From assembly GCF_037042905.1 (NCBI RefSeq), contig NC_087251.1:46068001-46132000 (forward strand): 64,000 nt of DNA, read 5' to 3'. The notes beneath the pieces are model-generated. The model did not search any database. It was not told the origin of the DNA and worked only from the letters and a program-made list of their open reading frames with translations. The stretch comes from Lytechinus pictus. Lineage: Eukaryota. The position numbers were made by a program, and so were the translations under genes. How positions within the stretch are numbered: position 1 is the first letter of the stretch; the number at the start of each line of letters is the position of its first letter. Shown here one piece after another: positions 2,462 through 63,400 of this stretch.

Positions 2462-3025
<564 letters not shown>

Positions 3026-7006: not shown

Positions 7007-7293
<287 letters not shown>

Positions 7294-8885: not shown

Positions 8886-9025
8886 CCTGAACTCTCCGTT
8901 ATTGCCATCATCTAGCTCGAGTACATATCCCTCAACCCAGCTGGAAGGGTGAGCTTGCCATGCGATGGTAACACTATTATTCTCTGCACTGCAGTCTGAT
9001 GGGATGATATTGGGTGCTTCAGGAG
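8886..9025 (-). CDS. TRIM9: TRIM9/67-like exon, N-terminal half of FN3 (PEAPNIIPSDCSAENNSVTIAWQAHPSSWVEGYVLELDDGNNGEFR)
   Basis: 140 nt, gtttttgcag|CT...TTCAGG|gttagt. The GYVLELDDG motif is typical of TRIM9 FN3; phase 1 to 0. Confidence 0.95.
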
Positions 9026-19331: not shown

Positions 19332-19488
19332 GTTTCATCTCTTTGAAGTTGAGCCTCTCTATTGACTGAATGGCAGAGGCGCTATCTAGGGTCAGGTCAA
19401 ACTCGGGTGCAACCCTCGCCTGGAGGAGAAGTTCCTTGTCCCAGGACTCCTCCGACATATGCGCCCGTTGGACCAGTGCTCCAGAGAC
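19332..19488 (-). CDS. TRIM9: TRIM9/67-like exon, COS box region (VSGALVQRAHMSEESWDKELLLQARVAPEFDLTLDSASAIQSIERLNFKEMK)
   Basis: 157 nt, cttccatcgcag|GTC...AAAC|gtgagt. The EFDLTLD...I..LNF motif is the COS box; phase 0 to 1. Confidence 0.93.
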
Positions 19489-22246: not shown

Positions 22247-22387
22247 CATGAGGAAAGCTGCAGGATCACCTTCCTTCATCACTTCTATACTGTATTCCAG
22301 GAGTCCCGTCGTCTGCTTCAGTTTCCCACTGCACTGCCCAATATGGTTCTTTAACATCTTCGTCTTGAACTCCTTCTCTCGATGAAC
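22247..22387 (-). CDS. TRIM9: TRIM9/67-like exon, coiled coil (VHREKEFKTKMLKNHIGQCSGKLKQTTGLLEYSIEVMKEGDPAAFLM)
   Basis: 141 nt, ctattctag|GTT...ATG|gtaagt. KL.QTTGL.EY..EV.KE.DP..FL is conserved in TRIM9/67. Confidence 0.94.
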
Positions 22388-40095: not shown

Positions 40096-40188
40096 CTGTA
40101 GAATTAGCTGATCTCTTCGTTTCTGAACAACATTGATGAGTTCATCAAACTTTGCAACAAGGCTAGCTTCAAAATCAACACTACTCTC
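40096..40188 (-). CDS. TRIM9: TRIM9/67-like exon, coiled coil (ESSVDFEASLVAKFDELINVVQKRRDQLILQ)
   Basis: 93 nt, gtcttcag|GAG...CAG|gtgagt. Phase 0 to 0; resembles the E..V.FEA.LVA..D.LI segment of TRIM9. Confidence 0.92.
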
Positions 40189-40797: not shown

Positions 40798-40893
40798 CTG
40801 CACTTGGTCTATAGTGTTCTTCAGATGAACCAGGAAGTCTTTGGCACTCTTGGCTTTCTCTGATAATGATGTCAATGCCTGGGAAAGCTCCGT
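40798..40893 (-). CDS. TRIM9: TRIM9/67-like exon, start of coiled coil (TELSQALTSLSEKAKSAKDFLVHLKNTIDQVQ)
   Basis: 96 nt, cttttgttttag|ACG...CAG|gtaaga. LSQAL..LS..AK.AK.FLV.L matches the post-B-box exon of TRIM9/67. Confidence 0.93.
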
Positions 40894-40982
40894 CTAAAAC
40901 AAAAGAAAAGACAAAAATGTGAAGCTTATTTTATTGATACATAATTAATTACTAAGTTACTTATTATAAACAACATAGCAGT

Positions 40983-41137
40983 GCCTCGTTGCATAAGAGT
41001 TACTATAAAAGTAACTTTGTCATACAATGGTAACTACCATGGTAACCATGCTAATCAGCCAATCAGAATCAAGGATTTCTGGAAGTTACCATTGGATTGC
41101 AAAGTTACCATCATACTAACTTTTAAGCAATGGGGCC
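40983..41137. mobile_element. Short MITE related to the ccttgattctgattggct family
   Basis: gcctcgttgcataagagtta ... taacttttaagcaatggggcc; core agccaatcagaatcaaggattt. Confidence 0.6.
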
Positions 41138-44106
41138 CTGGTGGTAATCTAATGTATATCTCTAAGTTAACAAGGACTTTGTTTCATTTTATTAATTGTA
41201 CGATTTCTCTATACATTTTTCTGCATCAGAGTAAAATCATGATAACAAATATGGATTTATAAATCAAAAAGTAGATTTTTGCTGTTGTTGTTTTTGCACG
41301 ATATGTAAACAAGACAAATGTCCATTTATAGACAATATGTAAATACTCATACTTATACAAGAATCTCTCTATGTGCTTTAGAAGAAAGAAAATTACATGT
41401 ATAATCATGAATTTTAACAAAATATTTGTAAAAAATTACGAAACCAATCGTGAAGGAATAATTTCGAACAGAAATATCACATCGGGACAAAAAGAACACA
41501 AGTGTTGGGGGACAGAAGTACGGTAGTTGTTTATCTCATCCACTGTCTCCCAGCACTGCTTAGTATTCTAGCCATGTTTCCCCACTCAAGATCTTGAGAG
41601 ACAATGGTTAATGGTCTCCTGTCAGGGATTCCCAGAGGCACCTGTCATACAAAGAGCCCTAAACAAGCAAGCTGGTTTCAACTTGTTACTCTTCAACCCC
41701 GTACATAAGACCGTGTGCCCTTCCGGGGGTTAGGCGCATGACAAGAATGAACTAAATACATGCATGGTGGTGTAGAAATGGGGGGCGTGACATGGGTAAA
41801 GTTCCCCATGCATTCCCAGATTAAATGGACATGATGAAAATGAGAAATGACTAGTCAAACAATAAGTAATTTGAAATGATAATTTGCTCACCAAGAAAGG
41901 ACAATATCTATGCATTTATATGCAGTTATTTAAGAAAAGGACTTTAAAAGTAGTCACCCCCCCTGACAATCATCATAGGAACTTCACTGCCGGATCGATT
42001 GCAGGACTGATGCAGCGCCACTAAACCTGATACCCGAGAGAGGGTATCTATTTTTGATTTGCAACTGTCCTTGAGAAATTTTCACTTTGGCAATACCATA
42101 TGAACCTTGCAAGCGCAAGAAACCCAGTGGGAACCTGTTGATGTCATCACCATTCAAGTATAATTTTGTGTTAAGAGAACACATGTATATGCAAGCCATG
42201 TCATTGCAATATATATTTCTGAAAGATTTTATCTATATACAGTGTAGTTTGGGACGGAGTCAAAACAAGTCAAGAAATAAGATAATATTCCTCATTCCCT
42301 TCTATCTTGACTCTGAAATATTGTTTTAAGTTGATGTCACACTCAAATTTTACTACATGACAGTCTACATCTGGGACTACAATATACATATATTCAATTG
42401 TAAAAAAGTTTGGCCATGAAGCCAAGATGTTAGAAAAACATACAGATCCAATAAGAAAGCTCTGTTTTTCATCTAAGAAGACAACATAAACTTAGAATTA
42501 TGTGGGTTTTACTTTTAACACAAAAAATAGCTAGCTATCCACTTTCTTCTTTATGAATACAACAAATTTACATGAAAACAAATTAGCCTACTTGCGACCA
42601 TTGCATCAGATACCGAGGCTTGATAACTTATTCAAATTGGACTGATACACCGTACATGTATACTGCACTGAAAATCAATAGCAAGTTAGAAAGGGAAACT
42701 TTACGGTCAGTTCCTACAAGGGCCACATCTACCCCGAGTAGAATACGGCGATTGCTGTCAGAAAAAAGGAGTTGCTTTATAGGAAGAGTTCCATTGACCT
42801 ACATCCACATAGTATCAGATTCATCTGAAGCAAACCTGTTCATATCAGCAAAATGTGCGAACACTACATTATCAATGGCATCATCGGTTAGGCAATATGC
42901 TTTGTGATTGTCCACTATTCATGATAGATGTCCATAAAAGATTTTCAATTATTCAAAACATGTTCTGCAGTAATAACATTTGACTATCAAAACTCTTGGT
43001 CATGTCACTTCTGCTGCAAATACTCTTCAAACTGATCAGTAATTAAAGAATAGTTTTGCACACCAATCAGCACTTTCATGCTCTTTGAAAACTACAACCC
43101 ATATACTTTTCTCCTTTGGTTGTTTCATTCTCATTTATTTTTTTAAATCTTTTTTATACTCATATACATATACCCTTTTATTTACTCATTCATTTGTTGG
43201 TTTTATTCATTGACTCATTATCAATCTATTCATTTATTCATAATTTATTTCTGATATTCAGACAGTCTTTGATTCAAGTAAAAGAGATACATGTATGTCA
43301 CGATCTTCACCTCTTGGCTTTTCTTAAATGTTGAACTACTTTGTAGAAACTTTCTTATCAAACCATAAGTTTGTTTTTATCATTGAGGACCCAACAACAT
43401 TTGAAACAGGTAAAACTGATATGACTATTCATTTGCTGTATAGTAGGCCATCTTAGATTGGTATTCATTTTTCCTTCATGATTATGTAGCACATTTTGTA
43501 AACAGCCAACTTTTACAAGCTACCAAGATTTTCATTTTAAACTTTAAAACAAAAACACCCCCGCCCCCCATAATAACAGGACCCAAAAACATCATTCAGT
43601 GGTCCCTTTCACACAATGTACTTCCTGCTGCTGCTGGAAGCATATTTCCATATACAATAACAGCATATTCAGCAACTCCTGGCAGATATGAACACAACTT
43701 CAGATACTGCTGCAGAAAAGCCACAAACAAGGTAACCTGAGGTGCCAAGTCAGTCAAGTGTTGCCCATCTGCATACATACATTAAATCAATAGGTTGGGA
43801 TGGGTAGCATACGACACGAAGCAAAAGTATTAAAGATTCAAATTCAGCTCACTAAAATCACTACAAATACAATATGAAATTTGATGAATGGTATAGATTG
43901 ATTGAGTAATACAGATCTGCCAACCTGAACAAGAAAATTTCAGTATTTTAAAAGCTGAAAAATCAGCATTTTGGTGAGAGAATAAGAATTTTTAAAGAAA
44001 TACCGTAGGACATTTCATAAAACTAAACTTCAGAAATCAGTATTTTACATGAAACCATCAGTATACTCATTGTTCAGTAAGTACTACGTTGGGAGCTCTG
44101 GTTATA

Positions 44107-44320
44107 CACTCTAAAAACAAATCAGTCAAAAATGACTAGTAAATAGGGTCAGCAGGGTGCAACTGTTATTCTAGTCATATTTGACTATTTTCTAGTCATA
44201 TTTTACTAGAACAGACTTATTTCTGACAAGAATATATGTCAGAAATGTCAGTGATGGTCATATCAGTTGCACCCAGATGACTACTGGTCTAGTCAATTTG
44301 ACTGGTTTGTTTTAAGAGTG
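44107..44320. mobile_element. MITE (CAC..GTG termini, TA flanks)
   Basis: TA|cactctaaaaacaaatcagtcaaaaatgactag ... ctagtcaatttgactggtttgttttaagagtg|TA. Confidence 0.8.
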
Positions 44321-47300
44321 TATTTCTTGAAGTTCACTTATTACTGGATCATTCACCTCTACCTTTTTTCATTAAATGAAGAGACAAGGGAAGAGAAAGG
44401 GATGAAGTACCATCATCTGAAAGTGACTTTAAATTTGTGATTGTAAGGCATTCTCTTCATGAAGTACAGTGTCATAAAGGCATTTTAATATTATGAGTGG
44501 ATTTCCTTTTCATTCAAATAATAAGTGACTATCTTGTTTCAAAGTGTAAGTTCTGTTGAATTATTAGTTATATTTTTCAGGTTTCCATTATTATTGAAAC
44601 ATCAAAAGTGTTTTCTCTGTAGCCCTATTAAGTCATTATTAAATCTAAAATGCAACTTGTCTTTTATACCTGAAGAGTGTATGTATGGGCAGAGATATTC
44701 ATTGAAATCTAAGAACTAGATATTAAACATGGAGAACCTAAGACAATCACTCTTTATATTCAATCAATATAACTCACTCCTTAAATCACTCTGAAGACAT
44801 GTTAAGGTGCGCTCTCTAAAAGAATCAAAAGACAAAGAGACTATTAAAGAATCAAGATATCTGATGCCTAATGCAAGAAGGCTGAGCCCGTCTCAGCCAT
44901 CTTGCAGACTAGCCCTGAGGACTAACCCATGGTAACCGAGAATGGTGGATCTATTAATCTCAGGCAAGGACAGTATACTAGGAAGGAATCAGCTGAAGGC
45001 AGGCAGCTGACAGGTATACGTGGGACTGAGGAAACCAGTATCGCGAGGTAATAATGGATGAGTTAACATAGTCTACATGTACATGTAGGGACAAATTCTC
45101 CCTTGCCACAATAAGATTTTAAAGAATAAGATAGAGATAAATAGATAAAGATAAAAGGTTTTTTTTTGTTCTCCCTTGCCAGAATAAGATTTGAAATGAA
45201 TAAAGAAAAGATAAAGAAAAGAAAAACTCTGCCTTGCCGAAATAAGAATGGGAATAGATGAATAACAATACTGAATGAAATAGAATGATTAATGAAGAGA
45301 AAAAATTTAATGACAAATAATGAACTAGACAACTAAAAGGAAAATATTTTTTTAAAGAAACATATATAGACAAACAACATGAGCAAAATACTTCACGAAT
45401 GTGAATAGTCCTTATCAAACACATTTATGATACCATTACACCCACACCTCCAGTTAAAAACAACCATAAAACACTTTAACATACTTTAATACACACATGT
45501 GCATGTGTTAAAGTACACCTCGCTATCTCATGCAGATGTGAACATGTTACATTGTGTTTCTTCCTCTGACATTATGTGTGTAAAGAATGTTATGTTGTAA
45601 CAATGTCATTCTAAGTGGAAATATATAGGTCACAGCTCTTTACATTCAACAAAGTCATCTAAAAGTACTATAATTATTTTACTTGCTTGTATATACAGGG
45701 AATACTCGGCACGAGGCTACAAATTAAACCCATGGTCTTAACTCTTAATCTATATTCTAATCTAATTGAAATTAAACAGAGTTGGTTCTATCTGGTTATT
45801 TTCAGCAAAACACTGCTCTTAAAAACATAACCACAAACTACACAATCCTTATAAGGAATTCCCATAATTATGCATTCAGCAGGCCAAAAAGAATCTGATT
45901 TCTTGGTGGTTCCAAGTAAATATACGGTCAGGATATGGGGTTGTGGGGAAGTAAATTCTTACATTAACAACAACACAGAAAAGAGGTGTTTTTGGATGCA
46001 TTTTATGCACCTAACCTCATTAAATTCAGCAGAGCGAGAGAAGTTCCATTTTCTGGTCATTTCAAGTGGCTCTCCGTGTAGCCCTCTTCTTAGAACAAAA
46101 TGCCACCAGGGAACAGCTACCAGAGGCCAATTCATTCACAAGATGAGCAAAGGTGTGAAAGTATAAATAACCAGGTGAATTTTTAGTGCTTCTCCCCAGG
46201 TGTGGGGGCTCGGTAGAGGGGGATGTGGATCGGAATGTGGGGCAAATTGGAAATCTGGCCTGCGACGCATCCACGGATATCCATTCTGTGTCTCACAGAA
46301 AATTTGTTTAACCATGAATTATGGAGGGACCAACACATCTTGCTTGTTTAGTGAGATTTATTTTTGTCTTAAATGTCAAAGTAAAGTACAAAATAATGAT
46401 TTATCACGTGTTTATGACAGAATGTGAGCATGGTGTGAGCTTCTTTTCACTTTCTAATTGTATCAGCATCTGCAAGAATCTTCAACCCTGAAGGAGGCAG
46501 ATGTAACCTGAAAAAGAAGGGGGAGGGGGTGATACCGCTAATTAAACAATAAAAAATCTCAAATTTGAAAGCAGCAAGAGAATACAATGTGAAATACCTC
46601 TGTTCTACATGTACCTCATCTTTGTATTGGAACAACAAAGGTGATTTACTTATTGAGAGAACTAGTAAATTTATCTCTACTTAAATTCTGTTGATACTTA
46701 GCAATCAATTACTGTTGATATACAGGTAATCTTCATGCTAACATATCAAATTATATTGGTATTTGGTAAGTTGCCAATAGCATACAGGGGTGTAAGAAAT
46801 GTAATGATTAACAGTTGAAATCTAACCAGCCAAGGATAAATACCTGCAATGTATCATCAATACTTTGGTTTGTGTTTGTAATAATCAATAGATTATTCCA
46901 CCTTTGACATCATTCAAGCAATTACTATTTGTTTTCAATAGATAGAACTGCTTTTTACGCTAGGTCTTCAATACAGATTGATTCGGGGGTATTTCATCCT
47001 TCCAAAAGGTTCACAATCGCTGTTTATTACTTGGCACCCATAATGATTCGGCCTTGTAATAAAGCAAACTGCGACCCCCATTACATGAAAAATATATCAC
47101 TGTAACTTTGCCACCCAATAACTACCACAGAAATGAATGCTCAACAGCCAATCAAAATCAAGGATCACATCGAAGAGTTATTATAATGTGCAACAGGGCC
47201 CAGTCCAGTTACAAAGGTGTAAGTTTATATCTCTCTTCTTCTTCAAAACAATAAAGGCATTAGTCCGTGTAAGGCGTATGAGTGGCTGGAAACCATTTGA

Positions 47301-47839
47301 GCAGACGATACATGTCATCATACGTATGCCACAAGAGCGGACCAATTGGTGGGCTGGTGACACACTGGTGGATACAGAGCTAATCCTCCAGGAGCGGCTA
47401 AGGTATTGCATGATGATGGAAGCGATAGGAGGTCATGACGAGTAAAGACACTGCATGGCCATAGGGATTACACTGAGGTGCCGTGTTGGTAAACTGATAG
47501 GAAGATGCGGCAAGAAAGATGAGCAACACTGACTAGACATAAAAGCAACAACTCGTGAATAAGTGCAGCTAACTTGGAGGTTTACTGGGTTGCTCCTTTA
47601 AAGCCTTAAGAACTTTCTGTGAAGTTTATTCAGGTTCTTCACTCAAAAGTAAGATAAAAGTGAGTTAAATTTGTTAGAATTATAGAAGCTTATTCAACTT
47701 GTCTGTGGATTTATCTATGAATTCATTCATTCTAAGTCTTTCTGACAATATTCACCTTTTATCAGATTGAAATTCATTATACTCTATTTATTGTTGTAGT
47801 CTATATGTTGAATCTGAACTTGCCTTGATTAGTAATAAC

Positions 47840-48068
47840 ATAATAATAATATAACACATAACATAGTGCACATATCTTCCATGGTACATAGGTGCTCACA
47901 GCTTTTTGAATTACTTCCCGCCGGTACCCATTCACCTCACCTGGGTTGAGTGCAGCACATTGTGGATCAATTTCTTGCTGAAGGAAATTACGCCATGGCT
48001 GGGATTCAAATCCACAGCCCTCTATTTCAAAGTCCACATCCTTATCCGCTGGGCCACAATAACACTCC
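47840..48068 (-). mobile_element. Near full-length tRNA-derived SINE
   Basis: gtggcccagcggataag ... ggatttgaatcccagcc ... cttcagcaagaaatt ... cactcaacccaggtgaggtgaatgggtacc ... (TAT)n tail. Confidence 0.8.
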
Positions 48069-49484
48069 ATTGTAGTAATTACTGAAATATTAAACTTTTG
48101 CTCTCAACACACTGGAAAATTTACCTCGAAATTGCCAACATTCCAGTACAGCCTTTATCAACAATCTACCTTAGATTCCACAAGTATATGCTAAAAAAAG
48201 GTTAGTCTTAATAATACAAAATAACAATAACTTCATTTATAAGGCAGTTACAGATGTTTCTAAGTGTTTGAACATCCCCCTCCTTCCGAGAAATCAATAT
48301 GTAAACAATCTTATGGATCTATGAATTCAATTTGTTATCAGAGTTATGGAAAGATGAAATCATCAAGGCATTAATAAACCGCAAGCTGCATTCCAGTCTG
48401 CCTGCATGTGATTAGTATCCTTATTCCTTTGATTCCTTCAACCCAGGTTTATTGGATTGCGGTTGATAGATTTCATGCAAATGTTACCACTAAAGACAAA
48501 CTACTGCTTCCTTTAGAAGCAACATTATCGATCATAGTGGCAGTTGATTCCACACGATTAGCCCCCGGACAAAAAAGAAAAAAAGCCTGCTTGCAGTATG
48601 CTCATATTTTCAAAAGACTGAGACTCTTTGAGTTTTTAACCTGGGAATGATTCACCCTTAGTTTACTTTTAATATTTATTTGTTTGACATATTGTATTTT
48701 GTTTTAAATGTGGCAATTTAAATACCCGGTTTAAATGTAGCATTTTGTTTCACCATGTATTAATTTGTTAAACAGTGCATCTACTGAAGAAGCTACCCTG
48801 TGTGCAAAGAATAAATAAATTTCAAAAAGCTTTGAAACATTACAAATCAAATCACAGATCACTTAACAATTAAAATCTTCAATCTACATTGAAAAAATAT
48901 AATCTTGAGCCAGAATCAGACGTTCATATTGTTTTGGGTTAGTATTAGGTCACTGTGTAATTTTGCTTTGTATATCATTTAATGCCATTATTTTTGTAAT
49001 TATTTATTATATGTTATATATTGTTCTTTGTATACCAACAGCCGGAATATGATTTTTATGCCAATGTAATTTCTTTTTGTTTTGAGCATGACAATAAATT
49101 TTGAATATCTGATCTGATATCTGTTCTTGTAAAATTTCAAGACCGGTGTCCATGCACTATAGACATATAAAGTTACTTATCCTAGCCCTAGGTCCCCCTA
49201 GGCATTGGTGTTGTGTGCGAGAGGTACCAATCTGGCACACTTCAAAGTCATGACTCACCATCTTCAAGATGTCAATATGTGCAGAATATTAGCTTTTCAT
49301 GCACAGTCAAGAGCAATAATTGTTTTCAAACTGCGTGCAAGCCAGTTTCCCCTACAAACCACAAAGTCCCTGACTACCTACTGTACATGCAAAGTACAGG
49401 TTTCTATTTCTGAAATATTCCATGGTTTGGTAGGATCAAACAAGAAATTTGAAGCAAAAAAAATTGTTAAATTCATAAGAACTA

Positions 49485-49702
49485 CACAGTAAAAGGAATG
49501 TTTATAATGTTATACATTATTGTTTGCTATATGAACTTAACAGTTGTTGTTTAACATCCATGCTTAATTTATTGAAGATTGATATTACAAATTAAACTTT
49601 GTTGTTTAAGATTTTGAAACACTTGTTTGAATGGTTAAACAACTTCTTAAAATATAAAGTTAAAAGAATTGTAAAAACATATTAAACAGCATTTTTACAG
49701 TG
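49485..49702. mobile_element. AT-rich MITE (CAC..GTG termini, TA flanks)
   Basis: TA|cacagtaaaaggaatgtttataatgtt ... aacatattaaacagcatttttacagtg|TA. Confidence 0.6.
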
Positions 49703-50069
49703 TAGTTTTCTCTGAATAACTGAAAATCAGTCTACTAATTTCATCAAATTTCTAATTGCGTGAAAGTTATGACAAATCTTTATATCTTAGTTTCTTTTGA
49801 CATTTTGAGATAAAGTTATTTTCTGATTTTCTTTATCTAAACTAAGTAAAACAGTCTGAAAAGATCCATTAGTGATTGGAATAAATAGAATATTTTACTT
49901 AAATTGAATGTTTTTGTTGAATTCGATAAACATTTCAATCATAGAATTCACCCTTAAAAAATGGAACGAAATTGTTATATTAGTGAACACACAAGGACAC
50001 CTTAGTTAATCATCCTTGCTTATTGTATGTTTAACCAACTACTGATGTTTTGAAGGTGACCATACCAAG

Positions 50070-50232
50070 AGGGTGTTTCATAAAGCTGTTCTTAAGTTAA
50101 GAAAGAATGACTGGTGCACCTTCCTTACACTCTAAAACCATCGTCAATGAACATTTTTGTGTATACCAATTATCACAAAAAGGATCACCAGTCGTTCTTA
50201 AAGTCATTCTTAATTAACAAACAGTAACACCC
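50070..50232. mobile_element. Short MITE
   Basis: gggtgtttcataaagctgttcttaagttaaga..gaatgactgg ... ccagtc..gtcattcttaattaacaaacag..acaccc. Confidence 0.55.
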
Positions 50233-51711
50233 ACCTGCTCTCACAGCTCTTTCGTTCCCTTAGAATTCCCATGCTTCTTTGCATCACTTTAAAACATTGG
50301 CCTTGACAAAATCTTGAAGATCTTTGTCATCTAACAGGACATTCGCTCGGGAAACAAACCCATAACTGACATTTTATACAAGATACAGAGAGATTGAGAG
50401 AATTAACATTATTACTTGGCCTTTACAATATGTACCTCAAAATATTCAGAATTAGAAGACATCTCATAAAACAGCTACAATTTCAAGTCATGGCATAAGA
50501 AGCAATCTTCTTTTATCTCAACAGTTCTTTCATTGAAACATGAAGATATCTTAACCTTTGACCGTATTTATTTACATATTACTGATGAAAATTACGAGGA
50601 AAATTTTAAATAATGGCAATGTACATCTTCACCTCCTGAGGAAGTGCTCTGTCAGATAATTTCACACAGAATATGCAGGAGAAATCCTTATATCTGCTTA
50701 CATCAGAATTTGTTTAACCATCCTATAAAGATGGCTCACCAAAAATTATGCACTGCAGCCACTGCCCAATAATTTGTTAGTGTTGACCAAAAGTTGGTTA
50801 AAATGGAATAGCATGCACATTGCACAATCATGCAGCTGGCATGCAAAATCTACAAGCCTGACTTTTCAGCAGTCCCCTCTATACCCAACCTTTTACCTAC
50901 CTATTGTACATCATGAACTCATTGTTTGTTTGTAGGATATAGACATAAATGAAATAAAATAAAATGACAATGAATTACAATTTTTTTCTAACCAACTTTT
51001 TGGTTGGTTTGGTGTTGGTTAAAGAAAATTTATGTGAGTGTAGTACTTCCTAAAAAGTTGGAATGCTCCTAAAGATGTGACTGTGTGTTGTTATCTACAG
51101 TAGATAGCAACATAGTAACACTCAACTTAATTCTCAACAAGTAATAAAGAGATCAGATAAGATTTATCCAATTTTCAAATTCGTAAAGTCTCTGATCTTG
51201 ATGACTTAAAACAGTTAATTCTATATTGACAAGGAAGGATACATATTGATTGTTTGTTTATTCTGTATTTCACTTATTTTATTTCCAAATTACCACTGGT
51301 CAACACAATTGCAAAATTAGTAGGATCACTAAAACAGTGGCAAAAAAACAAAATAACCTCTGAGAAATACATGCATCATTATTACGAATAAAAGTTCCAC
51401 AAGATTAATCTCTTACATGTAGATTTGATCACACAAAATAACAAGACTATATATATGGTTACCCTTAAAAAATCACAGTCCTGAAGTAACTAATACTCCA
51501 TTGGATAACACCATGAAAGGTCATATTCAGCAGCAACGCTGATTAAATAAAAGTACCAAATCTCCGCTCTCACAGCTTTACAAAATAAGGGACGCACTTA
51601 CTCATCTTACAGGTGAGCTCACTGTGTGTGTACGGGATGAACAGTGGCAGTTAAACAACCGTTGCATAAAAGTGGAATGATCATTTTTCTTGAATGAAAG
51701 AAACGACATAC

Positions 51712-51750
51712 CTTCATCTTGGCCATGTCTTGCGGAGTGGGATCCCCCAT
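51712..51750 (-). CDS. Candidate alternative first coding exon (MGDPTPQDMAKMK) of a RING/B-box-less TRIM9-like isoform
   Basis: gtaaacATGG Kozak context, 13 open codons, donor AAG|gtatgt in phase 0 matching the acceptor at 40893; CpG-rich block immediately upstream. Confidence 0.55.
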
Positions 51751-51829
51751 GTTTACCTAAAGGTAAATATATCTCATGAGATCAGCTCTGTGCCATTTTC
51801 CACAACAATAATCAAAGGATTGTTCTATT

Positions 51830-52280
51830 CGATGGGCGCATACGCCACCGCGGCCATACAGGCGGTGCAGCTGTGTAACGCACACGCGCGTGTGCAATCA
51901 CTGAGGGCAAATACGGCACACGGCGTCCACGTATACGTGTGAGGCTCAGGTTGAGTCGGCGGAAGGATGCGTTGCTATTCACGACCTCATCCCCCCCTTG
52001 CTGTTGATGATGATGATGCACTCGGACTCGGCCTGCTGCCGTCCCTGAATGCAAACATTAGCACTATTTGCGTTTGTGTGCTCATACACCGGGGGTATTC
52101 TCGCCAATTTGATGAGTAAGAGAGATGGGAGATGAGGAAGAAAAGAAAAAGGTTGAGCCAGCCGGAAGAGAGGATGATGGAGAGTGGATGCAGAGACTCC
52201 AGGGAGGGAACGCGGGTAAATGAATGCCAGGCGAGCCACCACAGTTGGTCTCTTCCCAATGAATTGTGATAAGAATGCCC
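51830..52280 (-). promoter_or_regulatory. CpG-rich candidate internal promoter / 5' UTR
   Basis: GC/CpG-rich island in an AT-rich intron. Inr-like TCAGT at 51900-51904 (minus strand), palindrome CACGTATACGTG about 30 nt upstream of it, and palindrome CACACGCGCGTGTG downstream. Confidence 0.45.
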
Positions 52281-52715
52281 CGGGCAATATTATGGTCGTA
52301 ATGGACGATTCAATTATGTTCTGAATGAGTCATCTTCCCTTTCTTCTTGCATGCTTTCATCTTTTACCTCCATGTTTTTCCCCCATCTCCTCTGGCCGTG
52401 AAACACAGAAGCAGCAACAGAAAAATTATTAATTCAGAGAAGTAGACAATTCCTCAAGGGAGTAGGTGCAAGCATGGCGGGTGTAAAAGGTGGTCAGAAG
52501 CAACAGCCCTATCCAAGCAAATCCCCTTTTGTACTTGGTCATGGCAATCATTCCAGTTCATTACCTTTAAGTTAGTATCCATATTGGACAAGTTAATCAG
52601 ACCATGTGAAACTCAGATCATAGCATTAGTTCAGGTTTAGTTCCCTTTATTATGCCATATCACTGATCAATACACTAACATGTGCATTTTCATACTGCTA
52701 TTGTTGCATTTTTAA

Positions 52716-53309
52716 AGGTCAAGTCCACCCCAGGAAAATGCTGACTTGAATAAATAGAGAAAAATCAAACTAGCATAGTGCTGAAAATTTCATCATAATC
52801 GGATGTAAAATAAGAAAGTTATGACATTTTTAAAGTTTTGCTTATTTTTCACAAAACAGTGATATGCACAACTACATGTAGGTGAGTCAGTCGATGATGT
52901 CCATCACTCACTATTTCTTTTGTTTTTTATTGTTTGAATTATACAATATTTCATTTTTTTTAGATATGACAATAAGGACCAACTTGATTGAACCATATAG
53001 TATTAAACAATGCTAATTCCACATGTTCAGGGACGAATTAATCGTTGTATCACTGACAATGAGGAGAAAATTAGAATATTTCATATAATAAAATACAAAA
53101 GAAATAGTGAGTGGATGACGTCATAGTCTCCTCATTTGCATATACCAGCCAGGATGTGCATATATTACTGTTTTGTGAAATTAAGCGAAACTTTGAAATG
53201 TCATAACTTTCTTATTTTACATCCGATTTTGATGAAATTTTCAGTGTTATGCTTGTTGGATTTTTCTCTTTTTATTCAAATCAACTTTTTGTTGGGGTGG
53301 ACTTGTCCT
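52716..53309. mobile_element. TTAA-target non-autonomous DNA transposon, intact 594-bp copy
   Basis: TTAA|AGGTCAAGTCCACCCC ... GGGGTGGACTTGTCCT|TTAA. Confidence 0.9.
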
Positions 53310-56300
53310 TTAAGATTGGAAGAGAATTTTCACTTGTAAATTAATTTCATACTCTCACAATATACATACAGTTCTTTGAGGATTTTTGGCAAGGACAAAG
53401 TATATCATATATTGTTTACACTTGTAAGGAGTTTGTATTTCATATTCTCACAATAATTATTTTGGGATTTTTTTTAATGGAACATTAATGATTTTTTGCA
53501 AGGAGCAGAGTATATCATTTTATTTTTCCTCGGATCATTTTTACACTTTTCCCGCTTTCATAACCTGTTAAAACTCCCAATGATGCCTTGCACAGAAGTA
53601 TAGAACTATACAGACACACTATACATTATCTTCACAATGAAATATTGACAAAATTCATGAATGTTTTCAAGGAATTAAGGTACTGATGGCAAAGTTTTAC
53701 AAAATTTCTAGAATAATCCCATTATTGTGCTAACTGGATCACTTTTAATGAATACATGTAGGTCATAACTTCATGAACTTGAGATTCTGTATGAAAACCC
53801 CTACATGTAGCTTAATGATGTGTTTTGTTCTGTTTTTGAAGTCACTTTGGGTGTATACAATCATAAATTTATAAAATATACCACATACAATGGTTCTGTA
53901 AATGTTTCCTTATCAGTGCACAGGATAAATCAACATATCTTATATATATTTTCACAATATTCTTAAACCATTTAATATTTATGTTATTTTTTTCTTATTA
54001 AGCTCCAATCTCTGACGAGCTTTCAGTGTATCAAAACTGCCTCTGTTTAATGTTCTGGGAATAAACTACCACCATCCATGTACTTTTTATAATTTGAATT
54101 TAGAGAATCTACAGCCTGAAACAGAGATTGAAAAGTAAACAATACATGTATGCAGGTCAACATTATATCTAATTGAAACAGAATATAAATAACTTTATAA
54201 TAATAATACACTAAATGCTGTTTTCAGAATTTGAGAGGATACTCCTCACTTGTCAGAAAAGAATTTTCGAATGTTAAAACCATCTAATGTCCATGCATAC
54301 ACACGTTAGTATAGCGCAGGTGTACACAACATTTATGGAGATCATTTATTTTTACTAGAACATGTACATATAACCAATTACATGAAAATTCTCTCTATCT
54401 CTATCTATTTTTCATCAGTTATGACAAACACCCCCTTGTAATATTCATAGAAAGGGCAATAAAAATGACCAACATCTCAGGGAGATGATTAGTAAATGAG
54501 ATGACTAAGTCTCCTCGTACACTAAACACTAGGGGAATCTAAGCCAATACAACAGGGTCCCCCTTTACACGGATGAAATGCAAATGATCTACAAAATTAC
54601 GTTGATTGTCGTGAATATTACAAGAAGTGAGCATCTTGCTTTACACCGGTAATTTGTTCCACGCGACTGCGTGGCCGAGCAGTGGAGTGTGTCTCTTATT
54701 GCCAAGACCACCTCCTCCCTCCCATCATCGTGCCCCACACACAAGGTTGGCGAGATGGACGTTCGGAGTGTGTTTAATGCATTGTGCAAAACAGGGCATT
54801 GGAGACACATTATTTTCTGTCAAAACGGGCACAGGTTTTCCTATTGATCCTGCATTTTGCATGTGGGTGAATGTCCAGTTTACTAAACAAACAGCTTATT
54901 AATGCTTCAGGCTCGGTTCTCAACTGCATCTAAAATGAGATCTCGCGTTCCCTCCGATAACCTGCATATATTCAGGTGCACAAACCGGTATGCTTCCTGC
55001 TTGGTTAGCAGGGGTCAAGGGGAAAAAATCAAGCATGAATATTTCATGACGAGCAACAGTTCAACAAATATTCAGGACAGAGTCTCTGAAAAACAACCTG
55101 GTGTATACGTAATTGGCACGAAATCCTTCTCCATGATAATAATATTCTCCACCCTATCAAGTCTTGATTCTGGGAAAAATGCCGTTAAAGGAAATTATGA
55201 CACATTGTTTTCCTCATCTAATTACTTATTTCTTTTATTTGCAAATCACAAAAAAAGGAATCTCAAAATCCATTTTTTATTCCTTCTTCATGAAAGCTTA
55301 ATGAATGGTTAACTGAACAGAGTTTCCTAGTTACTCAGTGTTGATCATTCACTAAATATGTACGCCCAACTTTTATTTTTTTGATGAGAAGTTGAGAACA
55401 ATCAATTTTCGCAAGGACCAAGTATCGAAAATTCACAACAGATAAACAATGTCTGAAAGAGTAAAGAGGTCTATGGTATTTCTATAGTAGTTCAATAATG
55501 CTGGGAAAACATTGGCTAATTGAACCTCAATGAGATTATACCCAATTTTACTATTGTTTTCTGGATGCAATAAAAAAATTATTAACAAAAGTAACCTTCT
55601 TGTTTCTGTTACGATGAATGCTTTTATCTAATTCATGTTTTACTTCAACAAATTACTTTAATATGTTATTCTAGGGACCCTGCGCTTCAGACATCTTTTG
55701 TTTATAATTAGTTCCTACGATATTTTCTTATCTGCAAATGTAACACTATTTTTTGCTGATGTGAATATTATCTTACATTGTAAAATAAAATATCAAAAAC
55801 AAATAAACCTTTTCATCATTTGCCAATGTAAAATGTGAGACTGCCTTGCCTGATCATATAATATGGTATTGGGTTCACTTTATGAAGAAAGACTGGGCAT
55901 CACGACATCTGATTACTATTCTCAACGTGAACTGGCAGTGAACGATCATAATATTGACTGAATCTCATCGCCTGTGGCAAAGAAAACATGCCCAGTCGAT
56001 AAGTGAATACAGACTTCATACATTACGATAACTAAATGAATAATGCCTTTCAAAATGAAATTGATTTCATTATTGATCGGAATCCTGGTTTGTTATCAAA
56101 AATGAAATAGGGCCGGTATTAAACTAAACATTACAATAAATATCTGTCACATGTCATCTTTTGTAAAACAAATATTGCTATTTCCCAACTTGTAGGCCTA
56201 CATTTAATTGCACAAGGCTTGAAAATAACACTCATGTTATACATTAAGCGGCTGAAGTATATGAAACTGAATATTTTAGAAAAAAAAAATAGTACACAAA

Positions 56301-56528
56301 CAGTGCTCAATTATAAAAAAATAATTGCTTCATCAAATAAACTTTTGCAAGTATGGAGGAAAACTTTGATTTTTTTATATGGTGTTTCCTAAACCAGGAG
56401 CAACTACAGCCTTTACTATAGCTCTTTTGCAACTTGAACTCAGAAGTGTTAAAAGATCAACTCTGGTACTGGTAACAACAAAATAAAATGTTTGCAGAAT
56501 GGAATAAAACTGACACAGACTTATTATA

Positions 56529-57590
56529 AACAAGTGGAACGCCTCTGGCAGTCTCGCCTGCATTACGCGATTCAATATAGCAACAGTGCTGACTTTGAAA
56601 ACAGCTATTGAATACTTATTTACAAAAGAAAAGACTCATGATGATAAAATACCATGTCCATTGACCCAACATGACCTTTGACCATAATCATGTGGTGTGC
56701 AAAATTTGCACGTCTTAGGTCACATGATAATGGTCAAAGACTGCAAAACATACTTGATAACCCCTCTGTCTATGTTTCATCATGGAGGTAGAAAGAACTA
56801 CATGTACACGTACATGTGTAGATCCATAAACTTTAAAGTTACATGTTCTTAGGTCACATGATAATGGTCAAAGACTGCAAAACATACTTGATAACCCCTC
56901 TGTCTATGTTTCATCATCATATTCATGGAGGTAGAAAGAACTACATGTGTAGATCCATAAACTTTAAAGTTACATGTATGATGGCAATTCAACGAATACC
57001 CTCAACATGGCCAAAGTTTGTTGACCCTAAATGACCTTTGACCTTGGCCATGTGACCTGAATCTCACACAGGATGTTCAGTGATACTTGATTACTCCTAT
57101 GTCCAAGGTGCTTAAACCAGATCCATAAACTTTCAAAGTTATGATGGAAATCAACAAATACCTCCAACACGGCCATGGTTCATTGACCTTAAATGGCCTT
57201 TGATCTTGGTCATGTGACCTGAAACTCTCACATGATATTCAGGGATACATGGTTACTCTTACGCCCAAGTCTCAAGAACTAGATCCATAAACTTTTAAAG
57301 TTATGAATTATGATGACAATGCCACAAATACCCTCAACATTATCAAAGTTTGTAGGCTCTAAGTGACCTTTGACCTTGGTCATTAGACCTGAAACTGAGG
57401 CAGAATCTTCAGTGATACACAATTACCCCTATGTCTATGTTTCATAAACTAGGTCCATATACTTTCTAAGTTACATGAATGATGACATTTCAAAAACTTA
57501 ACCGGTATCGATTCCTCCAACATGGCCTAAGTTCATTAGCCCTAAATGACCTTTGACCTTGGTCATGTGAGCTGAAACTCAGGCAGGATA
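56529..57590. repeat. Interspersed element with ~160-bp subrepeats carrying TGACCTTTGACCT
   Basis: Repeated atgacctttgaccttgg.catgtgacctgaaactc...gatccataaacttt.aaagttatgatg; internal direct duplication about 56715-56845 / 56848-56975. Confidence 0.8.
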
Positions 57591-60500
57591 TAAATGAGAA
57601 ATAATCCCTTAGCCCCTCAGTATAAAGTTCATCATGTGGGGGTAAATGAAGAATTTACCTTTTGCCCCATCGCCCTTTACCCCAGTAGGTCTATATGAAA
57701 TGCTTCAAGAATTACAATACATGGTGGAACTAGAGGAGATTTACGACTGCCATGCTTGATTCTGATAGCTCAAGAAAGGTCAAGACCATCGTGGATTATA
57801 ACCAAGGAAGGATCATAATAAGGTCAGAAGAATTATGGATAGCCAGATAGGATCATAGAAACAATAAAACAACACCTGTTTAACCACAAGATAAACAGTC
57901 ACTTAAGATGATTTCATATCACTTTCCATAGTTTAAAGAGAGATGACAGGATGGAAGCTACATATAGAGAGGTGTCCTTACTTTCAATTTTAGAAAATAA
58001 TTCATTACTTTTTATTAAGAGCGGATAATTTTCTGACACAAAAAATAAAAAATCCTCAAAAATCTTTGCCAAATTCACGTCTACAATAATGAGTATTGAG
58101 ATTTTTTTCTTATTTTTTTTTTGCAGAAGGGAAGAACAAACCACATAGGCCTTTTAAACCTCAATATAAAGGATGGATTGAGGATTTAACATGATTTATC
58201 AGAGAAAGTCAGGGGAGCAGAATAAGAGGTAGAAAAAAGTCCTGAGCATGGGGGTATATGCCCGTTGGATCTTCGCCTGCCCAATATAAAAAAGGCCAAG
58301 TTTACCCCCGAAGTTGATTTGTCAAAAGTTCAAGCATTTTATAGTTTTACTTATTTTACAAGCTATACATGATACAGGCAGTAAATGATGCAGCTTATGA
58401 GATCACATGTATACTAGTACTCACTATTTTGGTGTTCTTTTGTTTTATTACATTTTATTTATTTATTTTATTTTATTTCATTTCCAGGTACACATTATAC
58501 TCGTAACAATACTAAAAATAGTCAAATTCATTACATTGAAAATAATCATCATACAATATCCAATATACAATATTTTAAAAAACACTCAAAAAAGGAAAGA
58601 ACACCAGCTAATGCCTGGAGATTATCAAAAGAAATCATTTTGCGCTTTCAACATAATTTGAATTGCAATCATTGAAACTTTCAAAATCAAATCTGCAAGG
58701 ATCAATCTAAAATTCTTGATATTTCACACAACAAAGTACAAGTTGGATGTTTACTGGTCTTCTCTCTCATTTGCTTTGACGGTTTGACTTGACCAGCATT
58801 CCATAACTGTAACTGATTTTTGAATGCGAGTGAAACTTTAAAATGTCATAACTTCTCTATTTCACACACTTGCTTGGTTTCTTTTGTTCAAATCAAATTA
58901 TTGCTGAAATGGACTGGACCTTTAATGCGCTTGAGCCATTGGTGCACAACTTTCAAAGATAAGTTAAGAGTTTAACCTGACAAGGAGAGGGTTCCTGATG
59001 AATACCTGATAACATACAGGCCTACACACTTGACATGAAGTGGTACTTGGGCAGTAATTTCATCTCTCCATAAAATCATCAGCATACAAGATGTTCACAA
59101 TATCAATTGATGACAGTCTTTAAACTTATGAACCCCAACTGCAAAACATTCTCTGCTTCTAGCTTGGTACTTTCATACCATGGACCTATAATGTTCATAC
59201 CAATCAGATCATAAAAAGACCTACATGTATGTACTCTACTAAAAGCGCTAGATTTGAAGTTTTATACAACAATTTTTAATATATATATGAACCTTAAAGT
59301 AGTTTGAATAGTTTTTAAAAAGTGTTCAAACAGCAAAGTTTGATTTAAACTTTCATGTGTAAATGATGTGTCGCCATTATGATGAAATATGTCGCAGCAA
59401 TAAATAACTAATGCACTTAATCAGTTTTCAATCCAATTATTTAAGTTCTTGGTAGAAAATTTTTGAATAAACCTAATTTCTTATAATAGAATACAAAAGA
59501 ACAAGTGGGGATATGACAACATCAGCCCACCTAATGTAAATTCATGAAGACATGCCTAGAACCGTTTCACAGGAATAAGGCAAATCTTTAAAACTCAAAT
59601 AACTTTGTTATTTGTTATCCGATTTTGATCAAATTTTCAGCATTTTGCTCAGTGAATTTTAATCTATTCTTTGAGTCTTAATTGTGAAAAATCCTATTCT
59701 TTATTTCTTTTTATCCTATTTTCAAGCTTGAAATCTAACTTTTCTTTAAATTTTTGGAAAACATACCAAAAAATCATTCTTACATAAAAATTTATTTAAA
59801 AAAATTAATATTTCTAGGGTAAAATCCTATATTTAGTGCCAATATCCCCTTATTAATCCTACTAAACAGGATAAAATCCTAATAATTGGCAGCTCTGAAT
59901 GTGTTATTTCTTATGTCTAATCTTGATTTTCATTTTTTGTTTCTCAAACCATCACTCTAAGTATGATTTTATTTTCAAAAGAAAATTAGTCTATATTTAA
60001 TGTCTCATTAAATTAGTCTATATTTAATGTCTCATTAACTCTAATAGTAATCTGAGTGCAAATACATTAATGATGATTTTAAATATACATGTATACTACT
60101 TAGAAAATAACTAGTGATTTAGAGGAAGAAAATTCAAAAGAGTTTGGCAGTGAAAAACCTACACTCTAAAACAAAAAAACTAACACCCTATGTTTTATTA
60201 ATAGTTTCATCATGTAAGTCATGTCAGAGGAATGGGGAATAATTTACGAGACAAGGGTGAAACAGATCTTATAGAATGGATGGTCCCTGAAGAACAAGAA
60301 AGGCAATTTCACTCTTGGGACCTCTTCAAGTAAACATGATCTTGTATATCACATTTGACAAGCAGGAGTTTGGCCTCTTTATTTCTGACTGAACCAGTCA
60401 AATTATCTGGACCCCTCTCTGGTGGTGCAATCATATTTTGCTGCATTACATTAGATTTTAGAGTACACATTGCTTTTCAAAAGTACCCCAGATATATATT

Positions 60501-63400
60501 CATGAGTTAAATTATTATATTATTTTAATAATAATACCAATTGCACAAAGACCACATTTCTATTTGTTTTTAATGAAATATTAGTAACAATAGTTCCCTA
60601 TACTATAAAAAAGTTCCAACATCATTATCAGTGCAAGAATACCTGCAACCCCTAAAATCCTCTCATTAGAAAATTTGTGCATGATGTAATCTGCAAAAAT
60701 GTGATGTTGAAGGTGTTGTTCTTTCACCAATGTGATCTAGATGAGTAGATCATTCAAGGGCCTGGATTTTATTAGGTGCCTACTGCCTCATGCCCATTAA
60801 TAAACCAAGGTTAGGAGTGCCATATGCAGATAAATGTTGAACCATTGATGAAATCAGCAGCGCTTTGGAGCTGTGGTGGGATTTGATCTCTATACCTCAT
60901 GAAAGTCCTCAGACTTTTCCAGAGAACCAGTCACCACATACATGTACTTACTGTACAAGATGGATATTTTTGTAACTTAAGAAGAATTGTAAATCATTTC
61001 TCAAAGACATCCCTTGAAAGTAATTTAAGAGTGGATGATGCTGGTCTTGTCAGCAAATATAGGACTAGAGTTCAAACAGTCAGTAGAGTGGATGAAATAG
61101 TGCCCCAGTCCATTTTAATGTTCAGTACAACATAATTCATGTCCTTGTCCACTACAAACTGACAAGAACTATCTGCTGGCATCCCCCTAATCATTGAGGA
61201 AACAAATGGTGAAGTGAGAGTACAAACAAAATAACATTGCTGGCATTACATTTTCAAAGACAGTCAGTCAGTATTACCAGTAAAGTGTTTTGCAAAGTAT
61301 CTGTTTTCACTATGTTACCTAACATTTTCTCAGAACTGTGTATGAATGAATATAATTTTTTTTTACAAAATATTGGATGCTTATTGTTGAGTATAACTTT
61401 TAAGGTGAACTAAAATGAGTACAAGTACACAGGTCTGTAAAACATTCATATATTGCATAAGTCTACCTAAGCTAAAATATTATGGAAGTAATTTTTTCCA
61501 AAAAAAAAAGTTTTAGGTAAACTTTTAAACATCATTGTTTCATAAATTATATCTACACTGTACATGTAGATCTAGTCAGTTCAAGAGTATTGAATTGGTG
61601 TAAAGTGATGGAAACTCTGCTGAAACCCAAGTACTTTTGTACTCTTGTCAATCAATTTCTGCAAAAGGGAAAACAGCATCAGGATTCCAATGATTTTTAA
61701 GTACTGTGTGTCATTCTATAGTTACTAAGAGACAATCAATAAAGTTGTTTACATTCATTTCCATCTCAGTTTTCATTCATACCGAACTGAGCGATTAAAA
61801 AAAAACCTTGACTCATCCTCAAGGAAAGTGCGTTGCCAAGAGTTCGTTCATTCTCAGAGGTCCCCGTCTTCACCAGATAGGCATGATGATTTCTGTAATC
61901 TCACTTTGATTGAATCCACACCCCTGTTGGATAATTTACCAAGTAATTATCAACCAAAATAGAAGAGACTCGTGGGCTATTTTTGTTGTATTAAGCCTCC
62001 ATATCGCTTCTCGAGTTTGTCCTCTGGCTATCGACACTGGACAAACTCTAGTCAAATTGACCTGGACTTCATTGACGGAGTCTCAAGAGCCCAAGTGCAC
62101 TAAGTACTGTAATACTGAGGAAGTTCAAGGATCTTGGCACACCTGGGGCTATTAAAAACTATTAACCAGAACTCTTAAAGATAAAAATAAATCACTTAGC
62201 AGAAATCAGAGAAGAGCCACAGAGCAATTTGTCTCTTACATGTAAATCTCTTCAAGATTTCAGACGATGCCAAAGCGATGACTGGGAGATGTTTAGAATC
62301 TTTCCATATCATCATGATGGGATCGCCACTGATTAAATCCTCCTCCTTCCCCATCTAAAGGTCATTAAACAGCAATTAAGAGTCTATTCTAATCAAGAGT
62401 TCAAACATCCCCACACATACAGGTCTGTGTAATATTGATGGTTAGAATCTGAATTTTTTTTTTAAGGACTCTAAATCTATCCCTACATGTAATAAAGATG
62501 GGACAAGCTGCATTTCTTTGAACAAAAAGAAGGTGTGTAAATACTGAAAAAATGTATCATTAAATAATAGGATTGAAACTTCCCCTAAATAATGCAATAA
62601 TGGAGGAATTATGATCCCTTTATTTTGCATTAATCCTATTCTTTCATTTTGAAATAAGCACAAGATCAGTATCATCACAACAAACTGCAAAGAAAATAAT
62701 ACAAAATTTTAAATGCATACAGTAATATTTGGCCTAAATAGTTCACTAACCCCTCCCATGCCCTTCCCTAAAACTTAAATCAAAAGGTGGTTGAACTTTC
62801 AAACAAAATGACAAAAATTCATAATATCTAACCCCTCCCTAAAAATGAAACTATAGGTGATTGAACCTGGATACCGAAAACAATTTGATTATTTCTTATC
62901 ACATCAGCCATCCTTGATCATATTTTGCTTTCATGAAAACAAACTATACCTTGAAGGCAAATTCTTAGATCTAGGTGGGGTACCAATGGGATTGGTCTTC
63001 ACAAGGTGACTCAGCCAGCCTTCTTCTGCTGCCCATTAAAATTGTGGCGAAGGATTTTTTTTTAACTTTAAAGGCCAAGTCCATCCAGAGTTGGGATGAA
63101 ACAACAAGGGAAATCAAACAAGAAGTTACCAAAAATGCCCCTTAGTCTAAAAAAATAACTAGTTTTTAAAATGGAAATCATTTATGATTTAGGATTGTTA
63201 GAACATTATGATTAATTTTCATTCCAGCTGACATCCAAAGTGCTATACCACTCCCAATAATACACATTATCTTTCATTGTTAATCATCAGCAATGTTAAT
63301 ATTCTGCTTTCATATCTACTGTATAGTGCATATCTTATCAGATTAACGTCCCTTCTGAGTGCTTTACATTTACAAGTAAATTATTTTGTTGAATAATTAA

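What the first reader, a model, noticed from the sequence alone, without database searches (positions are those of the whole stretch)
51700..52280. Candidate internal promoter and first exon for a RING/B-box-less TRIM9 isoform
Seen: about 11 kb upstream of the first coiled-coil exon, a CpG-rich block with an Inr-like TCAGT leads to aaacATGG-GGGATCCCACTCCGCAAGACATGGCCAAGATGAAG|gtatgt. This encodes MGDPTPQDMAKMK and its phase-0 donor matches the acceptor at 40893. Known: TRIM proteins dimerise through the coiled coil and need the RING for ligase activity. Inference: this isoform would keep the CC-COS-FN3-SPRY region without ligase activity, acting as a natural dominant-negative or adaptor.
Basis: partly seen in the sequence, partly recalled or inferred. 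Interest (0 to 1): 0.7.

Follow-up and report, generated by a model that had tools for sequence, protein, structure and literature searches.

The report
Sea urchin TRIM9 lacking its ligase
A sea urchin nerve-guidance gene, TRIM9, carries a small extra exon inside its first intron that is spliced onto the rest of the gene and is shared with related urchins; it likely serves as a second start and would give a shorter protein without the ubiquitin-tagging part, predicted to pair with the full protein and likely to dampen it.

Summary
The exon is real. ATG 51750 encodes MGDPTPQDMAKMK, and its phase-0 donor joins the coiled-coil exon at 40893. One RNA-like contig shows that junction (25 of 26 letters); a second, from another study, stops exactly at the donor. 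Four L. variegatus RefSeq models and an older S. purpuratus model begin with the same 13 residues. The RING and both B-boxes sit in one intact exon 15 kb upstream, outside the window, so the short form (438 aa) lacks them.

The start site is not shown. Contigs end at 51873 and 51889, TCAGT occurs 40 times in the intron, and a conserved block lies further up at 52160-52345. Three of three raw RNA runs showed no cover of the exon. Four short upstream ORFs precede the ATG.

A dominant-negative role is inferred from engineered RING deletions of TRIM9 and a heterodimer model; it is untested. The isoform is already in automated annotation. I found no paper on it and no earlier finding of this scan. 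New member of a known kind.

The parts
52160..52345 (.). Conserved non-coding block upstream of the exon, a likely promoter or enhancer; holds CCAAT-, GATA- and AP-1-like words (52260, 52272, 52332)
   Evidence: Contigs of organisms C and D match it with 15 differences in 186 nt and 13 in 153 nt; motif scan; no Rfam match near a gathering score
52526..52563 (.). Second short conserved patch
   Evidence: Same contig of run X14, 2 differences in 38 nt
51900..51904 (-).
   Evidence: 11-27 nt beyond the upstream ends of two contigs (51889, 51873); 40 such words in the intron
51712..51889 (-). Alternative exon as far as contigs cover it (leader plus 13 codons)
   Evidence: X1 contig 51889-51712 and X2 contig 51873-51712; both run through the AG at 51758-51757
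51757..51857 (-). Four short upstream ORFs in the leader (ATG 51857, 51841, 51796, 51777; 10, 9, 4 and 6 codons), the last stopping 6 nt before the main ATG
51712..51750 (-). Coding part of the alternative exon, MGDPTPQDMAKMK, phase-0 donor; second in-frame ATG at 51726
   Evidence: 13 of 13 residues identical in P0001, P0122, P0126, P0135 (L. variegatus) and P0134 (S. purpuratus)
40894..51711 (-). GT-AG intron of the short form, 10,818 nt. It is the lower part of the 25,831-nt first intron of the long form, whose RING/B-box exon lies outside the window at L003:3540-2725
   Evidence: junction in the X1 contig
40798..40893 (-). First coiled-coil exon, shared acceptor
40096..40188 (-). Coiled-coil exon 2
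22247..22387 (-). Coiled-coil exon 3
19332..19488 (-). Exon for the region before FN3 (COS box by position; name recalled)
8886..9025 (-). FN3 exon 1
7155..7293 (-). FN3 exon 2
2462..2973 (-). SPRY exon with stop

Best explanation
This is an exon inside the first intron of the Lytechinus TRIM9/67 gene that is spliced in frame to the coiled-coil exon; it likely is an alternative first exon with its own promoter, and it would give a 438-residue coiled-coil-FN3-SPRY protein without RING or B-boxes that is predicted to pair with full-length TRIM9 and likely dampens its ubiquitin-ligase output. Shown: exon, junction, open frame to the SPRY stop, conservation, and absence of RING and B-boxes. Inferred: its own promoter in 51890-52560; translation from ATG 51750 past four short upstream ORFs; antiparallel heterodimers with the long form. 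Such a dimer would carry RING and B-box at one end only and would still bind SPRY clients such as the netrin receptor DCC/UNC-40. The net effect would be a cell- or stage-specific brake on TRIM9 ubiquitination.
For: Junction: the X1 contig leaves the genome exactly at 51712 and its 26 loose letters match 40893-40868 at 25 of 26, against 7 of 26 for unspliced intron. The X2 contig (other study, other organism code, no differences from the window) stops exactly at 51712. Both contigs run 116-132 nt past the internal AG with no loose end listed upstream, which fits a first exon. 5 of 180 stored proteins hold the 13-mer, each at its N-terminus: four L. variegatus models and one S. purpuratus model; these lineages split about 50 million years ago (PMC10273620, abstract start). 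The window's exons give an open 438-aa frame, 436 of 438 identical to P0135, with only FN3 and SPRY in Pfam for P0001. The RING/B-box exon is intact, has a GT donor in phase 0 and gives an open 697-aa long form; it is the only close copy in the genome. Upstream DNA is CpG-rich and conserved. Model of long (P0129 220-440) with short (P0001 1-180): score 0.66, best of 3 controls 0.00, runs agree in at least 94% of contacts, partner pLDDT at least 83. The mark was reached by 51 of 78 solved and 2 of 108 mismatched microbial pairs, and by 71 of 105 solved and 2 of 126 unrelated eukaryotic pairs. TRIM coiled-coil dimers have been solved, so this pass may be from memory. In mouse neurons TRIM9 lacking RING co-precipitates TRIM9 and blocks netrin-dependent branching, and the SPRY domain binds DCC (PMC4003241, passages). 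A Neogenin_C match over the family cut-off exists in this genome (29 of 294 positions).
Against: The start site is not mapped, and X1 also has a contig at 52031-52249 of unknown strand. Three of three raw RNA runs (6%, 6% and 25% of each read) had zero depth in the bin 51288-51951, although X20 had 17 reads on the coiled-coil exon, so the exon is not used in every sample. The junction itself rests on one contig, and its run is labelled RNA only by guess. The long-form junction was not seen in Lytechinus RNA: that exon lay outside the stretches laid, and most joints and loose ends were not displayed. Co-expression of the two forms is therefore unshown. No protein evidence; four upstream ORFs may lower translation. 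The engineered RING deletions keep the B-boxes, which this form lacks. PMC4003241 also reports that RING-less TRIM9 keeps some functions and does not fully copy the knockout. The listed models of Diadema, sea stars, sea cucumbers, crinoids, hemichordates and amphioxus do not show this N-terminus.
Confidence: 0.5

Rival explanations
1. Same short isoform, but it works as a ligase-independent homodimeric adaptor in cells or stages where the long form is absent, much like a RING-less FSD-type protein made from the TRIM9 locus.
For: All four listed L. variegatus models of the C-terminal half start with this exon, and no full-length Lytechinus model is among those listed. RING-less TRIM9 still restrains basal branching and binds SNAP25 (PMC4003241) and binds many partners (PMC8098814, passages).
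Against: The coiled coil is the same in both forms, so they would mix wherever both are made (model; TRIM9 self-association). No data on cell types.
Confidence: 0.25
2. The transcript exists but gives little protein: a weakly used promoter or regulatory leader with upstream ORFs, conserved mainly as a DNA element.
For: Low contig depth (about 7), zero cover in 3 of 3 raw runs, four upstream ORFs. Neighbouring non-coding DNA is about 92% conserved in organisms C and D, so 13 identical residues could partly ride on DNA conservation.
Against: ATG context, frame and donor phase all fit. The peptide is 13 of 13 identical in S. purpuratus, against 252 of 272 for the RING exon between S. purpuratus and L. 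variegatus. The 2 differences in the X1 contig both fall in the leader, none in the codons.
Confidence: 0.1
3. The exon is not the first one: the true start lies further upstream (52200-52560 or beyond), or the AG at 51758-51757 makes a 45-nt in-frame cassette (VNMGDPTPQDMAKMK) between B-box 2 and the coiled coil of the full-length ligase.
For: The AG gives a phase 0-0 exon with no stop. Contigs exist at 52031-52249 (X1) and 52160-52563 (X13, X14).
Against: 2 of 2 contigs on the exon run through the AG. None of the four full-length S. purpuratus models or three Diadema models listed holds the 13-mer. A further-upstream start would still give the same short protein.
Confidence: 0.08
4. Gene fission: in Lytechinus the RING/B-box exon and the coiled-coil-to-SPRY part have become two separate genes, and this exon is the only start of the second.
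For: NCBI annotates two separate TRIM9-like proteins in both Lytechinus species (P0125 and P0131 for the N-half). The long junction was not observed here.
Against: The RING exon keeps a GT donor in phase 0 and an open 697-aa long frame. The same split stood in an older S. purpuratus annotation (P0133, P0134), while the listed NCBI models are full-length (P0121, P0124, P0127, P0129). The two N-half models end in different tails, as gene-model artefacts do.
Confidence: 0.07

Closest known systems
RefSeq predicted TRIM9-like isoforms X1-X4 of Lytechinus variegatus (XP_041467906-909) and S. purpuratus XP_011668974.1
   Same: Same N-terminal 13 residues; 436 of 438 residues identical to X4.
   Different: They are automated models, filed as a separate gene named E3 ligase and not as a RING-less isoform. 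The S. purpuratus model joins the exon to the second coiled-coil exon. The four listed L. pictus C-half models start later, at MLKNH.
Human TRIM7 isoforms GNIP2 and GNIP3
   Same: Natural isoforms of a TRIM gene that lack the RING and keep coiled coil and B30.2/SPRY (PMC11360163, passages).
   Different: Another TRIM class, no FN3; the passages read call them spliced isoforms and do not name an internal promoter.
Engineered TRIM9-deltaRING and madd-2-deltaRING
   Same: Ligase-null, dimerise with the full protein, keep SPRY; block netrin responses (PMC4003241; the worm result seen only as cited there).
   Different: Artificial; human aa 139-781 keeps the B-boxes, which the urchin form lacks.
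FSD1, FSD1L and FSD2 (TRIM-like proteins that lost domains)
   Same: TRIM-derived proteins without the full tripartite motif (PMC10445537, passages); their coiled-coil-COS-FN3-SPRY layout is recalled, not checked.
   Different: Separate genes; here the layout comes from the TRIM9 locus and its SPRY is closest to TRIM9 and TRIM67.

Membership tests
Class I TRIM9/TRIM67/MADD-2 (the gene) | RING plus two B-boxes at the N-terminus | tested here: met
   Single exon L003:3540-2725, 98% identical to P0131, which hits zf-C3HC4 and two B-box families
Class I TRIM9/TRIM67/MADD-2 (the gene) | FN3 and SPRY at the C-terminus, SPRY of TRIM9/67 type | tested here: met
   Pfam; best PDB matches TRIM9 SPRY E 4.9e-80, TRIM67 SPRY 3.7e-77
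Class I TRIM9/TRIM67/MADD-2 (the gene) | COS box | tested here: inconclusive
   No COS family at E 0.01 for P0001 or P0129, but none is listed for mammalian TRIM9 either
Class I TRIM9/TRIM67/MADD-2 (the gene) | Dimerising coiled coil | tested here: inconclusive
   Model only: 0.66 against best control 0.00, possibly from memory of solved TRIM dimers
TRIM RING E3 ligase (the short isoform) | RING domain | tested here: not met
   P0001 and P0134 hit only fn3 and SPRY; the RING exon lies upstream of the alternative exon
Alternative-promoter isoform | Exon spliced to the shared downstream exon with an open frame | tested here: met
Alternative-promoter isoform | Exon is first, with its own capped start | tested here: inconclusive
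   2 of 2 contigs run through the internal AG and show no upstream loose end, but contigs cannot show starts
Alternative-promoter isoform | The long form is also made from the same locus | tested here: inconclusive
   Open frame and intact sites, full-length S. purpuratus models; junction not seen in Lytechinus RNA
Natural dominant-negative isoform | Co-expressed with the full form and lowers its activity | not testable with these tools
   Needs single-cell and biochemical data

The most novel reading that the evidence does not exclude
TRIM9 has a natural built-in inhibitor: an internal promoter, kept for about 50 million years in sea urchins, makes a RING- and B-box-less subunit that caps TRIM9 dimers and switches netrin/DCC signalling from ligase-on to ligase-off by cell type or stage. 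If vertebrates have a like internal start, the mouse tools would have missed it, since the knockout removes exon 1 only and the antibody was raised against the B-boxes (PMC4003241, PMC6002264).
Probability: 0.25. Interest if true: 0.65.

Novelty: new member of a known kind. Interest (0 to 1): 0.42.

Why it matters
Work on TRIM9, TRIM67 and MADD-2 in axon guidance leans on artificial RING deletions. A conserved natural form without RING and B-boxes would show that an animal uses this switch itself, and Lytechinus larvae allow exon-specific knockdown. It also offers a likely reason why both Lytechinus annotations split TRIM9 into two genes and call a RING-less protein an E3 ligase. The principle, a ligase-null TRIM isoform, is known from TRIM7, so the surprise is moderate.

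Tried and rejected
No RNA holder on record was listed for the stretch; 14 runs are RNA by guess. The first lay over 40000-59900 was swamped by repeat reads, so 1134 joints and 4921 loose ends were not displayed and the long-form junction could not be read. Of 24 listed runs, 7 were laid; no DNA run was laid as a control. Searches with residues 1-42 of P0001 found no further carrier of the N-terminal peptide: 2 of 4 candidates at near length and 2 of 3 shorter ones passed; P0002 is full-length, and P0179 and P0180 are unspliced read-throughs of the coiled-coil exon. Only cluster representatives are searched, so this is weak. Twelve or more members of the 28-member cluster were not listed. A structured RNA was rejected: one Rfam match at 18 bits against a gathering score of 43; no tRNA. 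A repeat or second copy was rejected: the block matches once in the genome. The adapter-like loose end of X14 at 52193 resembles a template-switch oligo (recalled). I rejected it as proof of a divergent start, because the organism C contig carries matching G-rich letters there, so strand invasion or mispriming is possible. TCAGT as evidence of a start was rejected (40 copies). My first exon join used a wrong FN3 boundary and gave a stop; corrected. Paper searches on TRIM9 with sea urchin, lacking RING, alternative promoter, RING-less isoform and MADD-2 isoforms listed nothing on this isoform; the library lacks most subscription papers, and no supplements were read. The TRIM32 short-isoform search gave nothing usable.

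Full report
Setting. The window is G000:C7:46068001-46132000. It holds the 3' part of a TRIM9/67-type gene on the minus strand. The SPRY exon is 99% identical to a Lytechinus variegatus protein and the exons match L. pictus models at 99.6-100%, so this is a Lytechinus sea urchin. The RING and both B-boxes lie in one 816-nt coding exon just outside the window (L003:3540-2725). It is the only close match in the genome; the other 101 of 102 matches are at most 39% identical. The first intron is 25,831 nt. The candidate exon lies inside it, 15 kb below the RING exon and 10.8 kb above the first coiled-coil exon.

Observation. All stated features are present: ATG 51750, 13 codons, gtatgt donor in phase 0, phase-0 acceptor at 40893, TCAGT at 51904-51900, and the highest CpG count of the window. 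In the wider 214 kb the CpG block is not in the top 25 of 2135 windows; the RING exon has a similar level. From sequence alone the pattern is only modestly rare: 6 ATG-to-donor patterns in the intron, 3 with good context, 2 of them this exon.

RNA. No holder on record as RNA was listed. I laid 7 of 24 listed runs. In X1 (organism A) a 201-nt contig covers 51889-51712 and continues with 26 letters that match the start of the 40893 exon at 25 of 26 positions, against 7 of 26 for the intron. A join from a GT donor to an AG acceptor across 10,818 nt is best read as splicing, whatever the run's label; the block is single-copy in this genome. In X2 (organism B, another study) a contig identical to the window covers 51873-51712 and stops at the donor; its last 5 letters were not shown. 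Both contigs pass through the internal AG, so the exon is at least 162-178 nt and not only a 45-nt cassette. Against broad use: three raw runs (X20, X22, X23; 6%, 6% and 25% read) had zero depth at 51288-51951, with 17, 3 and 2 reads on the coiled-coil exon at 40834. The start is not mapped. The contig ends lie 11-27 nt below TCAGT, a weak hint. X1 has a further contig at 52031-52249, and X13 and X14 (organisms C and D) have contigs over 52160-52345 and 52526-52563 at about 92% identity, all of unknown strand.

Conservation. Four L. variegatus RefSeq models (438-462 aa) begin MGDPTPQDMAKMK-TELSQ, and an older S. purpuratus model begins with the same 13 residues joined to the next exon. The two genera split about 50 million years ago (PMC10273620, abstract start). 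These are automated models; their RNA support was not seen. The peptide was not found in the listed models of Diadema, sea stars, sea cucumbers, crinoids, hemichordates or amphioxus. That may reflect annotation or a younger origin. The window's exons give an open short form of 438 aa (436 of 438 identical to P0135) and an open long form of 697 aa (666 of 697 identical to S. purpuratus P0129). NCBI splits the gene into an N-half and a C-half in both Lytechinus species; an older S. purpuratus annotation did so too, while the listed NCBI S. purpuratus models are full-length. The long junction was not observed in Lytechinus RNA here.

Mechanism. The short form has FN3 and SPRY and no RING or B-box. 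The new exon enters at the boundary between B-box 2 and the coiled coil, so the whole dimer helix is kept. A model of a long-form fragment with the short form's first 180 residues (S. purpuratus and L. variegatus stand-ins) scored 0.66 against 0.00 for the best of 3 controls, with at least 94% contact agreement and partner pLDDT of at least 83; the contacts run antiparallel. The mark was reached by 51 of 78 solved and 2 of 108 mismatched microbial pairs, and by 71 of 105 solved and 2 of 126 unrelated eukaryotic pairs. TRIM coiled-coil dimers are solved, so this shows likeness, not binding. In other TRIMs the coiled coil mediates dimerisation and oligomeric state is linked to catalysis (PMC4864278, abstract), and B-box 2 drives higher-order assembly and restricts RING dimerisation (PMC4936894, abstract). 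By inference a short-long dimer has RING and B-box at one end only and would cut the activity of assemblies, and a short-short dimer would hold SPRY clients without tagging them. In mouse, the TRIM9 SPRY binds DCC, and RING-less TRIM9 co-precipitates TRIM9 and blocks netrin-dependent branching, yet keeps some functions (PMC4003241, passages). A short Neogenin_C match suggests that a DCC/neogenin gene exists in this genome. I put 0.9 on the isoform being a real transcript, 0.5 on a brake on the long form, and 0.25 on a stand-alone adaptor.

Comparison and novelty. RING-less isoforms that keep coiled coil and SPRY are known for TRIM7 (GNIP2, GNIP3; PMC11360163, passages), and FSD1 and FSD2 are TRIM-like genes that lost domains (PMC10445537, passages). 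The gene is a class I TRIM9/67; the short product fails the RING test and is not itself a RING ligase. The protein is already in automated annotation of a sister species. Searches for a paper on it listed none (open-access library only, no supplements read). The scan's earlier notes hold nothing on it: one unrelated note nearby and none by words. The mouse knockout removes exon 1 and the antibody was raised against the B-boxes (PMC6002264 and PMC4003241, passages), so a like form in mouse would not have been seen with those tools; I have no evidence that one exists.

Verdict. Observation confirmed; exon and junction real and conserved; promoter position and function inferred. New member of a known kind, interest 0.42.

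Noticed in passing
window 22504-22542 (minus): Partial tandem copy of the acceptor and first 13 codons of the coiled-coil exon at 22387, running into a stop after 26 codons. It may act as a decoy acceptor; the four listed L. pictus C-half models start inside the true exon at MLKNH.
   Followed up: partly
window 62199-62354 (minus): NCBI model P0125 splices the RING/B-box exon to this stretch as a terminal exon; either a gene-model artefact or a RING-B-box-only transcript.
   Followed up: no
window 13729-13746 and 6184-6237 (minus): Optional exons of 6 and 18 codons (before FN3, and between FN3 and SPRY), also optional in L. variegatus and S. purpuratus models.
   Followed up: partly
window 51880-51895: Perfect 16-bp palindrome just below TCAGT (read); the X1 contig ends inside it at 51889.
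   Followed up: no
window 52193: The X14 contig (organism D) carries an adapter-like loose end here on the + strand; a divergent transcript or a library artefact.
   Followed up: partly
window 51712-51726: The new exon ends in MAKMK, like the MAKSQK or MSKSQK end of the RING/B-box exon it replaces; chance, convergence or an old partial duplication.
   Followed up: no
window 47900-48040, 50070-50205, 52700-53320, 56530-57430, 59370-59580: Dispersed repeats in the intron that draw many RNA reads from other loci.
   Followed up: no
window 54501-55000: Second CpG-rich patch in the first intron (19 CpG in 500 nt) with almost no RNA cover.
   Followed up: no
G000 contigs C2, C9, C14, C18: Clusters of many B-box genes with long open frames (about 100 weak matches to the TRIM9 N-half).
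   Followed up: no
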